Shown: positions 45,723-49,111 of the stretch, piece after piece
How the letters are laid out: every line of letters begins with the position of its first letter
Numbering within the stretch: position 1 is the stretch's first letter
IMG/VR virus record: IMGVR_UViG_2529292911_000007
From: a virus
Lineage: Duplodnaviria; Heunggongvirae; Uroviricota; Caudoviricetes
Length of the DNA stretch: 49,111 bases
Strand: one strand, 5' to 3'
Made by a program: the position numbers and the translations under genes
Notes under the pieces: generated by a model
What the model saw: only the letters and a program-made list of their open reading frames with translations
Databases searched by the model: none
Told to the model about the DNA's origin: nothing

Positions 45723-46073
45723 AAACTGCAGACACGCCGTATGCAAGACGTGCTGCGGTTGGTTGATGCACTTTCGAGAGTGTATGTATTGAATAATTTC
45801 CAACTGTCATTAATTTTATTTATTTTTTGCATGAGAGGATTTGAACCTCCGAGCCTCGACACCTTATGACAACGCGATATTCCCTTGATGACCGCTATGC
45901 GCCAAAATAACCAATTGATAAATAAGTTGATTTTAATTGGTTGGAAGCAAGTCAGGTCAAATTCAGCATGCCGCTCTCTGTATCGGGTAGTTAAATTTTT
46001 CTATAACTGATAGTAATATGTTAAAACTCACACAGATAAATTATCATTGCTCAACAAGTATAATGGAGTTCCC

Positions 46074-48029
46074 GTGGATACAGCAGAACATGATGGCAAA
46101 TTTGCTTGGGCTAGTTTTTATGAGGCTTTTGCCAACGCGTTACTGACTTGGCGAAATCGTAGAGATGAATTAGTCAAAGGTATTCATCTAATTGCCTCAG
46201 GTGTGGAAGGAATGTCCCATCTGCAGGACAAATCTATTATGGGAGAGATCTTTCCCTTAAAAGACATTTGTCCGTTTACTACTATGGGCTTGTTCAATCG
46301 TAACTTGACCGACAGCAATCGCAAAATTATTGCTGCCAAGCTAGCGAATTTGTTGGGCGTGAACGAACCGATTCCTGACTCCTTTGCCGGAATCCCGCTG
46401 TTGAATAACCAAAAATCTTGGTTCTTTGGTTATGAAAAGTCACGCGACCCTAATGACATTGAATGCTTGTGGGAAATGTTCTCGCAGGCAATGACCTTTG
46501 CGGATAACCAGAATACTAACTCTGCAGACTTCACTGCCGCATATGACATCGCTTCTACAGTAATGAATGTCGGTTGGAATCTCACCATGGGGTTGTACTG
46601 GACCCGTCCTTGGTTCTACCCTACTTTAGATAGCCAGTCGCAGTATTACATTCAGACAGTGTTAAACATTAAGATCATTAAAAACGGGGCAAAAGGTCGC
46701 TGTAGTGGACAAAGTTACCTGAGTCTTATGCGGGCGCTGAACGAGGTCTTTACCCAACCAAACTATCCGGTTCATTCTTTCCCAGAACTTTCTTTATCAG
46801 CGTGGAATACAGATCTTAGCCAGTCTAAAGATGAGGTGGCAAATAGAACGTGGAAAGCCTCTTTACTGAATAAAATTAAGGCGTTATGCCTGAAAAAAAA
46901 TGGCCCTTATTTCACTGCTTCGGAGTTGGAAGAAAACTACTTGGACGTATTCAAGGTAGAGCATCCTGAGAGCAAAACAGTTACAAGCTCAATCTACTTT
47001 TATCTACAGAAACTATGCAATGATGATGAGTTAAAGTCCCTTGAGTCCGGAAATTATGAATACCTGAATTTTGAGAAAAACGAATCCCAGACGATAACTG
47101 AGGAAACTGTCGAAGAGAGTGCGCCGTTGCCAAAACTCACTCACGTTCCTTATGACATCAGTCATCTGGTGCAGGATGGCTGTTTCTTGGAAGAGGCTAA
47201 GATCCAACTCACACTTCAGCGCCTGATCGACAAGAAAAACCTGATATTACAAGGACCACCCGGAACTGGAAAAACCTGGTTAGCGCGACGTCTGGCGTAC
47301 TGCTTGATGGGAGAAAAAGCACCTGAGCGTATTAGCGCGGTGCAATTTCACCCGAACCTCTCTTACGAAGACTTTATTCGCGGCTGGCGTCCAGGTAAAG
47401 AAGGGCAATTGACGCTAATTGATGGACCTTTTGTAAATGCAATCAAAACTGCAGTCAATAATCCTACCTCGAAATATGTGGTGATAATTGAAGAGATTAA
47501 TCGTGGCAATCCGGCGCAAATCTTCGGTGAAACACTCACGTTGATGGAAGCAGATAAACGCACGCCGACTGAGGCATTATCTCTTTCCTATCCTAAAAAT
47601 GATGATGAAAAAATATACATTCCTGAGAATCTATATATCATCGGTACGATGAATATTGCAGACCGCTCACTCGCACTACTTGACCTAGCGCTGCGCCGTC
47701 GTTTCGCGTTTATCGATCTAAAGCCAGCTTTTAATGACGCGTGGAGAAACTGGGTAAATTATAATTACGCAATTGATTTTGACATGTTAGCATTCATCAA
47801 ATCTCGACTGACGGTACTTAACGATATGCTGGCAAAAGATGTTACCTTAGGACCACAGTTTTGTATCGGTCACAGCTATGTCACCCCAGCTATCGGCCAA
47901 AAAATCAACGATGCCCAGGCTTGGTATGAACAAGTCGTTGATACAGAGATCTGCCCTTTGCTCGCCGAATATTGGTTCGATGCTCCAAATAAAGTCGATG
48001 AAGCCAGAAAAGTGTTATTAGCAAAATGA
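46074..48029 (+). CDS. McrB-like AAA+ GTPase with an unrecognised N-terminal domain of about 370 aa
   Basis: C-terminal half aligns to E. coli McrB from memory (LILQGPPGTGKTWLARRLAYCLMGEKAP...VQFHPNLSYEDFIRGWRP...VVIIEEINRGNPAQIFGE...IIGTMNIADRSLALLDLALRRRFAFIDL); GTG 46074 has a GGAG RBS, alternative TTG at 46047. Confidence 0.75.
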   Translation: MDTAEHDGKFAWASFYEAFANALLTWRNRRDELVKGIHLIASGVEGMSHLQDKSIMGEIFPLKDICPFTTMGLFNRNLTDSNRKIIAAKLANLLGVNEPIPDSFAGIPLLNNQKSWFFGYEKSRDPNDIECLWEMFSQAMTFADNQNTNSADFTAAYDIASTVMNVGWNLTMGLYWTRPWFYPTLDSQSQYYIQTVLNIKIIKNGAKGRCSGQSYLSLMRALNEVFTQPNYPVHSFPELSLSAWNTDLSQSKDEVANRTWKASLLNKIKALCLKKNGPYFTASELEENYLDVFKVEHPESKTVTSSIYFYLQKLCNDDELKSLESGNYEYLNFEKNESQTITEETVEESAPLPKLTHVPYDISHLVQDGCFLEEAKIQLTLQRLIDKKNLILQGPPGTGKTWLARRLAYCLMGEKAPERISAVQFHPNLSYEDFIRGWRPGKEGQLTLIDGPFVNAIKTAVNNPTSKYVVIIEEINRGNPAQIFGETLTLMEADKRTPTEALSLSYPKNDDEKIYIPENLYIIGTMNIADRSLALLDLALRRRFAFIDLKPAFNDAWRNWVNYNYAIDFDMLAFIKSRLTVLNDMLAKDVTLGPQFCIGHSYVTPAIGQKINDAQAWYEQVVDTEICPLLAEYWFDAPNKVDEARKVLLAK

Positions 48030-49111
48030 CGACAATAACCGGGAGTGAGCAACATACAGCATCACGTATTCCCATGCGAAATATCTGGATGCTGATGCTG
48101 TACGCTTCAGATCTGTTTCGTCAGTTAGGGCGCAATCAGATCGCAGTAGAAGATAACCCAGCAGAAATCCCCGACCTGGTGGCGACAATCCTCCTTCATG
48201 AGATTACGCTGCGCCGACGTCGCAATTTAAATATGGGATACCAAACTTGTCATGCGGCCCTGAACCGGGTGAGAGGGCGCATTGACATACTGTATACTGC
48301 CAGTCATCAACTACTGGAACGGGGACAGGTTGCCTGCCATTTTCAAGACATAACCCTCAACACCCCCCGAAATCGCTATGTTCGCTGTGCGTTAGAACGT
48401 CTGGCCTCAATCATAGTGAAACCGTCTTTGGCGGCAGATTGCCATTTTATGGCAATATCACTTCGCCGTGAGGGGATAAATGGAGGATATCCTGCCCCCC
48501 ACGAATTACCCTCAGTGTGGCGTTTTGGACGCCATGATGCCGCAGATAAACCGATGGTCGATGCCGCACGATTAGCTTTTGAACTGCTGATGCCGACCGA
48601 AGATCAAGGCCAATATCTTTTACCTGCGCCCTCAAATAACCTTTACTGGATGAGAAGACTATTTGAAAAAGGTATCGCTGGCTTATATCGTGTACACCTT
48701 GCCAAAACAACTTGGCAGGTCTCTGCAGGGAAAGAGCTGAAATGGGCGTTGAGCGATCAAAGTGCAGGTAGTGCAGAGATTTTCCCGACAATGAAGTCAG
48801 ACATTATTCTGGAACACAAGACTGCCCAGCGGCGTATTATTATCGATACCAAATTTAATTCGATTCTGACAAAGGGTTGGCATCGGGAGCAATCACTACG
48901 TAATGGCTATATTTATCAGCTATATACCTACCTTAGAACACAGGAGAACAAGACGGATCCGCTTTCGCTCAATGCCGCTGGTCTTCTACTTCATCCAGCT
49001 GTTGGCTATATGCTTAATGAGTATGTTGTCACTCAGGGACATAAGATCCATTTTGCTACAGTAGATATGACGGTAGATGCTAAAGCAATTAAAAACAATT
49101 GCTGGCAATAG
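48026..49111 (+). CDS. McrC-like nuclease subunit (PD-(D/E)xK)
   Basis: 361 aa; ATGA overlap with the McrB-like stop; N-terminal PMRNIWMLMLYA resembles McrC PVRNIYYMLTYA, and IIIDTKF...NGYIYQLYTYL matches the McrC catalytic region; stop codon is the last 3 nt of the window. Confidence 0.7.
   Translation: MTTITGSEQHTASRIPMRNIWMLMLYASDLFRQLGRNQIAVEDNPAEIPDLVATILLHEITLRRRRNLNMGYQTCHAALNRVRGRIDILYTASHQLLERGQVACHFQDITLNTPRNRYVRCALERLASIIVKPSLAADCHFMAISLRREGINGGYPAPHELPSVWRFGRHDAADKPMVDAARLAFELLMPTEDQGQYLLPAPSNNLYWMRRLFEKGIAGLYRVHLAKTTWQVSAGKELKWALSDQSAGSAEIFPTMKSDIILEHKTAQRRIIIDTKFNSILTKGWHREQSLRNGYIYQLYTYLRTQENKTDPLSLNAAGLLLHPAVGYMLNEYVVTQGHKIHFATVDMTVDAKAIKNNCWQ

What the first reader, a model, noticed from the sequence alone, without database searches (positions are those of the whole stretch)
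46047..49111. McrBC-like type IV restriction system with a large unrecognised N-terminal domain on the GTPase subunit
The C-terminal half of the 660-aa protein is clearly McrB-like (Walker A GPPGTGKT and the McrB GTPase signatures), and the downstream overlapping gene is McrC-like with a PD-(D/E)xK-type motif. The first roughly 370 residues of the McrB-like protein do not resemble the E. coli McrB methyl-cytosine-binding domain or any reader domain I recognise, so the target specificity is probably different and uncharacterised. The locus lies at or just beyond the prophage right end.
Basis: partly seen in the sequence, partly recalled or inferred. Interest (0 to 1): 0.7.

Follow-up and report, generated by a model that had tools for sequence, protein, structure and literature searches.

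The report
McrBC restriction cassette, uncharacterised DUF8425 sensor
A prophage in E. coli carries a two-gene McrBC-type DNA-cutting defence system whose motor protein has swapped the usual methyl-cytosine reader for a widespread domain of unknown function (DUF8425) plus a DpnI-type winged helix, so it is a real but only moderately novel variant whose DNA target nobody has yet determined.

Summary
An McrB-like gene (46047/46074-48029) overlaps an McrC-like gene (48026-49111) by 4 nt. The McrB C-terminal 290 residues are 47% identical to the EcoKMcrB GTPase. McrC keeps the D...DxK nuclease triad.

The N-terminal 365 residues are not one unknown domain. They split into DUF8425 (res 15-258, Pfam PF28527, all-alpha) and a DpnI-type winged helix (res 267-340).

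The "NTD-wH-NTPase + McrC" architecture was already noted, untested, by Helbrecht et al. 2024. DUF8425 has about 2,400 clusters at 50% identity. All 11 scanned proteins that extend past DUF8425 carry a McrB-type AAA+ domain downstream.

Two fold searches rank HhH-GPD (Ogg/EndoIII/MutY) glycosylases on top, but below significance. A helix-hairpin-helix, a Pro-rich loop and a 98% acidic residue (D195) fit that hallmark. The sequence signal is weak.

The winged helix has lost 4 of 5 DpnI methyl-pocket residues, and the hosts are Dam+, so Gm6ATC is not the target.

The cassette sits inside the prophage, between a pin remnant and attR in icd. This is the slot that holds mcrA in e14. It occurs in 289 of 5,426 complete E. 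coli genomes.

Verdict: a new variant of a known kind with unknown target specificity. The apparent McrC truncation is probably an assembly error.

The parts
46074..48029 (+). McrB-like gene (651 aa from GTG 46074; the mechanical ORF starts at TTG 46047, and residue numbers in this report use that 660-aa frame)
   Evidence: ORF. GGAG lies 5 nt upstream of GTG 46074. PGAP and the homologues are 651 aa.
46089..46820 (+). DUF8425 domain (res 15-258): all-alpha, ten helices plus a small hairpin
   Evidence: Precomputed PF28527 on a 99%-identical protein and on its homologues; the name is given. AF2 model has pLDDT 91.4 and pTM 0.90. There are 2,403 clusters at E<=1e-3.
46521..46661 (+). Candidate helix-hairpin-helix, Pro-rich loop and conserved Asp (res 159-205; D195 at 46629-46631)
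   Evidence: Secondary structure. Position 195 is D in 125 and E in 9 of 137 sequences; P188 is conserved in 136 of 137. The hhalign register against an Nth/MutY/AlkA profile places D195 on Nth D138. Statistical support is weak.
46845..47066 (+). DpnI_C-type winged helix (res 267-340); recognition helix VTSSIYFYLQK at 46980-47012
   Evidence: H-S-H-H-S-S topology with pLDDT 79-94. A profile of this region from 8 family members hits the DpnI wH (4esj/4kyw) at 3.9e-11. Translation checked.
47139..48026 (+). McrB-type AAA+ GTPase plus lid (res 365-660): Walker A 47253-47276, Walker B 47478-47504, NxxD 47649-47669
48026..49111 (+). McrC-like nuclease subunit: ATG overlaps the McrB stop; D259 lies in 48791-48811 and D274-x-K276 in 48836-48856; the C-terminus is cut 12 aa short by a frameshift at 49091
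   Evidence: Relatives' McrC proteins are 373-382 aa.
45276..45723 (+). Pin-like recombinase pseudogene immediately upstream (context; same gene order as pinE-mcrA in e14)
   Evidence: Annotation of the 99.9%-identical CV839-06 locus, mapped through the indels listed. e14 map.

Best explanation
This is a mobile two-gene, McrBC-type, modification-dependent (type IV) restriction cassette carried as cargo at the attR end of an icd-integrated lambdoid prophage.

By homology with EcoKMcrBC, the C-terminal AAA+ domain should form GTP-hydrolysing hexamers. McrC should plug into these rings, stimulate GTPase-driven DNA translocation and cut both strands with its D...DxK site.

Target choice is made by a composite N-terminal module. 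The first part is DUF8425, found fused upstream of a McrB-type motor in every complete family member examined. In some members it is the only extra domain, so it most likely binds DNA. The second part is a DpnI-type winged helix that probably anchors duplex DNA.

I think DUF8425 is most likely a very divergent HhH-GPD (Ogg/EndoIII/MutY-like) fold that interrogates flipped non-canonical bases. This would resemble the inactivated EndoIII sensor of END nucleases. The target would then be a phage or plasmid DNA modification absent from E. coli itself. It is not Dam Gm6ATC and, by inference from typical E. coli, not Dcm 5mC. Hypermodified bases are the best guess.

Shown here: domain homologies, motifs, genomic context and distribution. 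Inferred: assembly, GTP dependence, DNA binding by DUF8425, the fold assignment and the target.
For: McrB motor and McrC:
- Supported.
- No methyltransferase is adjacent in five independent contexts.

DUF8425 and the McrB motor:
- Nineteen architectures were scanned. Eleven show a full or partial AAA_5 domain downstream; the other eight are short proteins that end at or soon after DUF8425.
- Two such short proteins examined in context are McrB genes broken by IS elements.
- One separately called 251-aa DUF8425 gene sits directly upstream of a DUF8425-McrBC in L009.
- A minimal DUF8425+AAA+ protein with McrC exists.
- Partner domains vary: DpnI_C, Mrr_N, HARE-HTH and TPR.

Fold:
- The model is confident (pLDDT 91).
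- 49 of the Foldseek top 50 are HhH-GPD glycosylases from at least 6 distinct proteins, best E 0.16.
- hhalign against an Nth+MutY+AlkA profile scores 21.5. The column-shuffle null is 12.6 +/- 2.5, and 1 of 150 shuffles reaches the observed score.
- That register places helix 159-170, a hairpin and helix 178-186, then the RPWxxPTL loop, then D195 on the catalytic Asp. Position 195 is D or E in 134 of 137 sequences.

Precedent: the iEndoIII sensor of hypermodified bases has also been seen fused to McrB-like GTPases (PMC12191111).

Winged helix: DpnI homology at 3.9e-11, but DpnI pocket residues E228/K229/R231/Q232/Q235 are S/S/Y/F/Q here.
Against: - No sequence-level link exists: zero PDB hits for the DUF8425 profile at E<=10 and no PF00730 or PF21790 hit.
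- hhalign probabilities are 0.1-2.3%. The Nth-only alignment gives a different register.
- Among 91 unrelated real proteins, two score higher than MutY.
- The hairpin glycines are not conserved.
- Nothing here shows DNA binding, restriction or expression. No sigma-70-like promoter was found upstream on the + strand.
- The END-type sensor lacks catalytic residues, whereas DUF8425 keeps an acidic residue at position 195, so it may not be the same thing.
Confidence: 0.55

Rival explanations
1. The winged helix is the real modification reader, sensing 6mA in a non-GATC context (the working idea of Helbrecht et al.). DUF8425 would then be a structural, regulatory or autoinhibitory domain that does not read bases.
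For: The wH is homologous to the 6mA-sensing DpnI wH, and wH fusions tested by others are 6mA-dependent (PMC11037411). The fold evidence for DUF8425 is sub-threshold.
Against: Most DUF8425-McrB proteins have no wH at all. Minimal members have only DUF8425 plus the motor, so DUF8425 must supply target binding there. Four of five DpnI pocket residues are replaced in the window protein. DUF8425 is as conserved as the motor, at 50-59% identity across phyla.
Confidence: 0.2
2. DUF8425 is a catalytically active monofunctional DNA glycosylase. The system would excise a modified base (as Brig1 does), and McrBC would then act on or alongside the abasic DNA.
For: Position 195 is acidic in 134 of 137 sequences. 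It sits at the N-terminus of the helix that follows the Pro-rich loop, where HhH-GPD enzymes have their catalytic Asp. The Nth K120 position is Asn or Lys, as in monofunctional enzymes. A second near-invariant acid, D73, exists.
Against: The fold assignment itself is unproven. The Asp could be a structural N-cap. No known McrB N-domain is enzymatic. END sensors of this fold are inactive (PMC12191111).
Confidence: 0.12
3. The cassette is an inactive remnant in this strain: a decaying prophage region with a frameshifted McrC.
For: The window McrC ends 12 aa early. Neighbouring pin and acyltransferase genes are disrupted. CV839-06 has stops in tail genes.
Against: All six indels relative to CV839-06 are 1-nt homopolymer deletions, which is typical of assembly error. 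Both genes are intact in CV839-06 and FJ_Ec_21. For the DUF8425-wH region, 273 of 290 matching genomes are >=99% identical. The cassette is retained even in a roughly 9-kb prophage remnant.
Confidence: 0.05
4. It recognises an unmodified specific sequence, as LlaJI/LlaI do, rather than a modification.
For: Some McrBC relatives do this (PMC12707154).
Against: Such systems need cognate methyltransferases. None is adjacent in any of the contexts examined.
Confidence: 0.03

Closest known systems
EcoKMcrBC (E. coli K-12 mcrBC)
   Same: Same two-gene operon with overlapping stop and start. The AAA+ GTPase is 47% identical, with Walker A/B, NxxD and RRRF motifs. McrC has the D...DxK triad. No methyltransferase is present.
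   Different: The N-terminal DUF3578/SRA-like 5mC reader is replaced by DUF8425 plus a winged helix. McrC is only 24% identical. The location is prophage cargo at icd, not the immigration control region.
'NTD-wH-NTPase' + McrC group of Helbrecht et al. 2024 (PMC11037411)
   Same: [quoted passage not shown]
   Different: That paper gives no fold, family size or function for the NTD, and its purification attempt failed. I could not check whether its examples carry DUF8425.
END nucleases / iEndoIII sensor (preprint PMC12191111)
   Same: An Ogg1/EndoIII-like helical domain is used as the sensor of a modification-dependent nuclease. The authors also report fusions of that sensor to McrB-like GTPases.
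   Different: END sensors hit OGG/EndoIII by HHpred and lack the catalytic residues. DUF8425 has no sequence-level hit and keeps an acidic residue at the Asp position. The effector here is McrB/McrC, not a PLD nuclease.
Thermococcus gammatolerans McrBC (YTH reader), Staphylothermus McrB (PUA-like) and LlaJI (B3)
   Same: These are McrB motors with swapped N-terminal DNA readers (PMC12707154).
   Different: Those readers are beta-rich folds. DUF8425 is all-alpha.
EcoKMcrA in cryptic prophage e14
   Same: Same chromosomal slot: pin, then a type IV restriction gene, then attR (icdC), then iraM. Frequency in E. coli is similar, at 331 versus 289 of 5,426 genomes.
   Different: McrA is an unrelated single-chain HNH enzyme.
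R.DpnI C-terminal winged helix
   Same: It is homologous to residues 267-340 (E 3.9e-11 for the family profile).
   Different: Methyl-pocket and base-contact residues E228/K229/R231/Q232 are S/S/Y/F here, and the hosts are Dam+.

Membership tests
McrBC type IV restriction systems (broad family) | McrB-type AAA+ GTPase with Walker A, Walker B and the NxxD signature | tested here: met
   AAA_5 at 3.5e-27; 6hz4 at 4e-77; 47% identity to EcoKMcrB; motifs translated.
McrBC type IV restriction systems (broad family) | Adjacent McrC partner with a PD-(D/E)xK nuclease | tested here: met
   PF10117 at 4.6e-21; NF007277 at 346 bits versus cut-off 338; D259/D274/K276 align to EcoKMcrC D244/D257/K259.
McrBC type IV restriction systems (broad family) | No cognate methyltransferase (modification-dependent logic) | tested here: met
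   None is adjacent in E. coli, Enterobacter, Pectobacterium or two metagenomic contexts.
McrBC type IV restriction systems (broad family) | GTP-dependent cleavage of modified DNA | not testable with these tools
   Needs biochemistry or plaque assays.
EcoKMcrB orthologue (NCBIfam NF008457 equivalog) | Full-length match including the DUF3578 5mC-binding N-domain | tested here: not met
   265 bits versus cut-off 637; only residues 378-654 align; there is no N-domain alignment in BLASTP.
NTD-wH-NTPase fusions (PMC11037411) | Unknown NTD, DpnI-like wH and McrB-like NTPase, with a McrC neighbour | tested here: met
NTD-wH-NTPase fusions (PMC11037411) | DpnI motif for 6mA/GATC recognition in the wH | tested here: not met
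   E228/K229/R231/Q232 correspond to S/S/Y/F; only Q235 is kept.
Pfam DUF8425 (PF28527) | Match to the family model | tested here: met
   Indirect: precomputed PF28527 on P0001 (99% identical) and all listed homologues. The model is not in the local Pfam copy.
HhH-GPD DNA glycosylase superfamily | Two-lobed all-alpha fold superposable on Ogg/EndoIII/MutY | tested here: inconclusive
HhH-GPD DNA glycosylase superfamily | Helix-hairpin-helix followed by a Gly/Pro-rich loop and a conserved Asp | tested here: inconclusive
   Helix 159-170, hairpin, helix 178-186, RPWxxPTL, then D195 (98% D/E) fits. However, hhalign gives P 0.02, 1 of 150 shuffles reaches the score, unrelated proteins score as high, and the hairpin Gly residues are not conserved.
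HhH-GPD DNA glycosylase superfamily | Sequence match to PF00730 or related models | tested here: not met
   No hit at E<=10 for 23 members; zero PDB hits for the profile.
END nucleases (iEndoIII sensor) | Sensor domain with loss of the catalytic residues | tested here: inconclusive
   The putative Asp position is retained. No END sequence was available for direct comparison.
CoCoNuT McrBC branch | NxD instead of the NxxD GTPase motif, plus coiled coils | tested here: not met
   The motif is N-I-A-D, i.e. NxxD. The definition comes from PMC11090510.

The most novel reading that the evidence does not exclude
DUF8425 is an HhH-GPD-derived base-flipping module that has kept its catalytic acid. In that case this abundant McrB clade (about 2,400 clusters, and 5% of E. 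coli genomes) would be a glycosylase-coupled McrBC. The motor nuclease's six N-terminal domains would excise, or covalently probe, hypermodified phage bases. This would merge the Brig1/END and McrBC defence strategies in one machine.
Probability: 0.13. Interest if true: 0.8.

Novelty: new variant of a known kind. Interest (0 to 1): 0.5.

Why it matters
[quoted passage not shown] Only beta-rich readers (SRA-like, YTH, PUA/EVE, B3) have been characterised.

DUF8425 is a large, conserved, all-alpha alternative whose function is unknown. It is as frequent in E. coli as mcrA, yet it is annotated only as 'AAA family ATPase'.

Finding its target would extend the catalogue of DNA modifications that bacteria can police. 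It matters for cloning and transformation of natural E. coli isolates, and for the choice of therapeutic phages with modified genomes.

If the HhH-GPD link holds, it would show repeated recruitment of DNA-repair glycosylase folds as immune sensors.

The locus also illustrates a swappable defence slot at the attR end of icd-integrated prophages: mcrA in e14, and this cassette here.

Tried and rejected
- **Sequence searches of the N-terminal 377 aa.** Local Pfam, PHROGs, PADLOC, NCBIfam and PDB gave nothing beyond a faint DpnI_C hit.
- **DUF8425 profile against PDB, and 23 members against Pfam at E<=10.** Nothing was found.
- **The afdb50 fold library.** It was unavailable.
- **Foldseek with the full-length model.** It returned only AAA+ hits.
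- **'Stand-alone' DUF8425 proteins.** I looked for other effector fusions such as PLD. P0027 and P0115 are McrB genes broken by IS elements, the other short proteins scanned show no effector domain, and no PLD fusion was found.
- **hhalign of DUF8425 against single Nth, MutY and AlkA sequences.** Probabilities were at most 1.3% and the registers were inconsistent.
- **hhalign against the NucS_C protein next to a DUF8425-McrBC.** No similarity.
- **My first by-eye HhH candidate (helix 76-81 / FNR / helix 89-103).** I dropped it in favour of 159-205, which fits both the profile alignment and the topology.
- **The END nuclease supplement.** I looked for sequences, but no supplementary text is held.
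- **Literature searches.** There are no papers on PF28527 or DUF8425. Searches for e14/icd McrBC papers were uninformative.
- **The cassette in sequenced phages.** Absent by both DNA and tblastn search.
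Full report
**Observation**

The two ORFs exist as described. One runs 46047..48029 (+, 660 aa from the first TTG). The other runs 48026..49111 (+, 361 aa), and its ATG overlaps the upstream stop as ATGA.

The upstream protein carries GPPGTGKT, VVIIEEINR, MNIADRS (the McrB NxxD signature) and ALRRRF. It matches:
- Pfam AAA_5 at 3.5e-27;
- the NCBIfam EcoKMcrB model over residues 378-654 only, at 265 bits against a full-length cut-off of 637;
- the EcoKMcrB AAA+ structures 6hz4, 6ut6 and 7vsr at about 1e-77.

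A Foldseek search with the full-length model returns EcoKMcrB chains with target TM-scores of 0.86-0.90. BLASTP against K-12 McrB gives 47% identity over 282 residues and nothing in the N-terminal part.

The downstream protein matches Pfam McrBC at 4.6e-21 and NCBIfam McrC above its cut-off. It is only 24% identical to EcoKMcrC. Even so, the catalytic D244/D257/K259 of EcoKMcrC align to D259/D274/K276.

**Gene models**

The likeliest McrB start is GTG 46074, preceded by GGAG at a 5-nt spacing. This gives 651 aa, the length called by PGAP and shared by the close homologues. Residue numbers below keep the 660-aa frame.

For McrC, the ATG at 48026 is preferable to PGAP's internal Met17. It preserves the residues that align to the EcoKMcrC N-terminus. 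It also gives 373 aa in strain CV839-06, in line with 374-382 aa in relatives.

In the window, McrC stops 12 aa early, exactly at the window edge, because an A6 run is A5 at 49091. All six indels between the window and CV839-06 are single-base deletions in homopolymers. Another one splits the acyltransferase gene. I read these as long-read assembly errors, not biology.

**Context**

The window is a lambdoid prophage that begins with its integrase. In the 99.9%-identical locus of CV839-06, the gene order runs:
1. tail fibre;
2. tfa fragment;
3. acyltransferase;
4. pin-like recombinase pseudogene;
5. McrB-like gene;
6. McrC;
7. a 3' icd fragment;
8. iraM, ycgX and bluR.

K-12 has pinE, mcrA, the end of e14, icdC and iraM at the same place. 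The cassette therefore lies inside the prophage, in the slot that holds mcrA in e14.

In strain FJ_Ec_21 the cassette survives in a roughly 9-kb e14-like remnant. The N-terminal region is found in 289-290 of 5,426 complete E. coli genomes. It is always chromosomal and is annotated only as 'AAA family ATPase'. For comparison, mcrA is in 331-340 genomes.

The cassette's G+C content is 44.7%, against 55.8% for the prophage structural genes. It is absent from 50,697 phage records, both as DNA and by tblastn with the DUF8425 segment (residues 15-258). In Enterobacter and Pectobacterium the same pair is an isolated two-gene island among metabolic genes. It is therefore a mobile cassette. No methyltransferase is adjacent in any context examined.

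**Anatomy of the N-terminal 365 residues**

An AlphaFold2 model built on 46 homologues (pLDDT 85) resolves four parts:
- an all-alpha domain at residues 15-258;
- a small H-S-H-H-S-S domain at residues 267-340;
- a disordered linker at residues 346-363;
- the AAA+ domain.

The N-domain modelled alone reaches pLDDT 91.4 and pTM 0.90.

**The middle domain is a DpnI-type winged helix**

Pfam DpnI_C is faint on the window protein (E 0.42) but clear on relatives (1e-11 to 1e-14). A profile of this segment from eight family members, including the window protein, hits the DpnI C-terminal domain (4esj/4kyw) at 3.9e-11.

The DpnI residues that form the methyl pockets and contact bases are E228, K229, R231, Q232 and Q235 (PMC3424567). 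They correspond to S, S, Y, F and Q in the window protein, whose recognition helix reads VTSSIYFYLQK. The hosts are enterobacteria, which are Dam+ by general knowledge. Fully methylated GATC therefore cannot be the target.

**The first domain is DUF8425**

The protein database's precomputed annotation assigns PF28527 to a 99%-identical protein and to every homologue. PF28529 covers the McrB lid. The names DUF8425 and McrB_lid appear. Neither model is in the local Pfam copy, which explains the empty scan.

An exhaustive profile search finds 2,403 clusters at 50% identity with E<=1e-3, and 876 with E<=1e-30.

I scanned 19 architectures:
- Eleven show a full or partial AAA_5 domain downstream of DUF8425.
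- The other eight are short proteins that end at or soon after DUF8425.

Two such short proteins examined in context are McrB genes interrupted by IS elements. One separately called 251-aa DUF8425 gene sits directly upstream of a DUF8425-McrBC in L009.

The neighbouring domains vary:
- DpnI_C or Mrr_N winged helices after DUF8425;
- two HARE-HTH domains or TPR repeats before it;
- an unassigned 80-160-residue extension in most non-enterobacterial members, which lack the winged helix.

Minimal members consist of DUF8425 plus the motor, next to McrC. In those members DUF8425 is the only candidate for target binding. This is my main argument that it is a DNA-recognition module.

**Fold of DUF8425**

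Foldseek gives no E<=0.001. Nevertheless, 49 of its top 50 hits are HhH-GPD glycosylases: SsOgg at E 0.16 and probability 0.66, then MjOgg, OGG1, Tm1821, MutY and MagIII. TM-scores are 0.2-0.36. Many of those entries are OGG1 variants, so the independent proteins number about seven.

I followed this lead with a directed profile test:
- A 137-sequence DUF8425 alignment (median 40% identity to the window) was compared with a three-sequence Nth+MutY+AlkA profile. The score was 21.5, with hhalign P 0.021.
- The null from 150 column shuffles is 12.6 +/- 2.5, with one shuffle reaching the observed score. The reversed profile scores 12.5.
- The resulting register is topologically sensible. Helix 159-170, a hairpin containing N-V-G (174-176) and helix 178-186 fall on the HhH motif. 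R187-P188-W-x-x-P192-T-L194 falls on the Gly/Pro loop. D195, at the N-terminus of helix 196-205, falls on Nth D138 and MutY D138.
- Position 195 is D in 125 and E in 9 of 137 sequences. P188 is conserved in 136 and W185 in 133 of 137. The position of Nth K120 is Asn (100 sequences) or Lys (21).

The caveats are serious:
- hhalign probabilities never exceed 2.3%.
- Nth alone aligns in a different register.
- Among 91 unrelated real proteins scored the same way, MutY ranks third and Nth eighth. Two unrelated phage proteins score 22-24.
- The hairpin glycines are not conserved.
- There is no HMMER-level link to PF00730 or to any PDB chain.

I put the HhH-GPD assignment at roughly even odds.

**Literature**

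- Helbrecht et al. [quoted passage not shown] They report one failed purification and no functional data.
- A 2025 review lists only SRA-like, YTH, EVE/PUA and B3 readers for characterised McrB proteins (PMC12707154).
- The END-nuclease preprint (PMC12191111) shows that an inactivated EndoIII/Ogg1-like domain acts as a promiscuous sensor of hypermodified bases. It mentions finding that sensor fused to McrB-like GTPases. No END sequence was available to me, so I could not test whether those fusions are DUF8425 proteins.
- No paper in the library mentions DUF8425 or PF28527.

**Mechanism proposed**

By homology with EcoKMcrBC (Nirwan 2019 and Niu 2020, as summarised in PMC12707154 and PMC11090510), the proposed steps are:
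1. The motor forms GTP-bound hexamers.
2. McrC inserts into the ring and stimulates hydrolysis.
3. DNA is translocated.
4. The D...DxK site cuts the DNA.

The N-terminal module selects the substrate. The winged helix probably holds duplex DNA. DUF8425 probably inspects bases, plausibly by flipping them into a pocket as HhH-GPD enzymes do.

The host's own marks are excluded as targets. Dam is excluded on the evidence above. Dcm is excluded by inference from typical E. coli, which I did not test here. This leaves foreign modifications. By analogy with END nucleases, candidates are glucosyl-hmC, 7-deazaguanines and hypermodified thymines. Phosphorothioate and Mom-type adenine are outside options.

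The retained acidic residue at 195 leaves open real glycosylase chemistry. That is the most novel reading, and I give it about 13%.

**Verdict**

The finding is real, and its central intuition is right: this is an McrBC with a different, uncharacterised reader. One of them is recognisable, the other is already a named DUF, and the architecture is already in print.

What is new here:
- the size of the family and its consistent fusion to McrB-type motors;
- the fold lead with a conserved Asp;
- the loss of the DpnI methyl-pocket motif;
- the e14-mcrA slot equivalence.

I rate it a new variant of a known kind, with interest 0.5.

Noticed in passing
window 44814, 45033, 45096, 45418, 45470, 49091: All six indels relative to the near-identical strain CV839-06 are single-base deletions in homopolymer runs. 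One splits the acyltransferase gene into 288-aa and 74-aa ORFs, and one truncates McrC at the window edge. This is probably a long-read assembly artefact.
   Followed up: yes
window 43923-45010 (-): A low-GC (32%) acyltransferase-family gene lies between the tail-fibre genes and the pin remnant. It is a second cargo gene, possibly for surface-polysaccharide modification, and it is frameshifted in the window but intact in CV839-06.
   Followed up: partly
window about 45276-45723 (+); K-12 locus L008 14686-16578: A pin-like recombinase pseudogene precedes the cassette, just as pinE precedes mcrA in e14. The attR-proximal end of icd-integrated prophages looks like an exchangeable slot for type IV restriction genes.
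   Followed up: partly
L016 (E. coli FJ_Ec_21) 1946-10924: The cassette is retained in a roughly 9-kb e14-like remnant (intE, xisE, a few genes, tfa, McrB-like, McrC, icd'). This suggests it is kept after the prophage has decayed.
   Followed up: partly
L009 3948-4703 and 8269-9429: In one genome a stand-alone 251-aa DUF8425 gene lies upstream of a DUF8425-McrBC. A 386-aa protein with a NucS_C nuclease domain and a 260-aa unassigned C-terminal region lies downstream. This is reminiscent of the NucS-like END nuclease architecture, but hhalign showed no similarity to DUF8425.
   Followed up: partly
homologues P0028, P0047, P0073 (residues 1-80/160): Most non-enterobacterial DUF8425-McrB proteins lack the winged helix. 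Instead they carry a conserved 80-160-residue N-terminal extension that has no Pfam or PDB sequence hit. It may be another reader domain.
   Followed up: partly
L002 6776-7747; L011 16501-17953: Other type IV-like genes sit next to DUF8425-McrBC cassettes. One is a HARE-HTH + Mrr_cat gene directly upstream in one genome. In Enterobacter, SymE and a ScoMcrA-like SBD-HNH gene lie a few kb away.
   Followed up: no
window 38205: The window has CAG where CV839-06 has a TAG stop in the tail-tip gene J. The window prophage may therefore be less decayed than its closest database match.
   Followed up: no
window 40166-43447 (+): A 1,093-aa tail fibre has a long Ala/Ser/Thr-rich low-complexity stretch and a C-terminal S74-type intramolecular chaperone peptidase (as annotated in CV839-06).
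   Followed up: no
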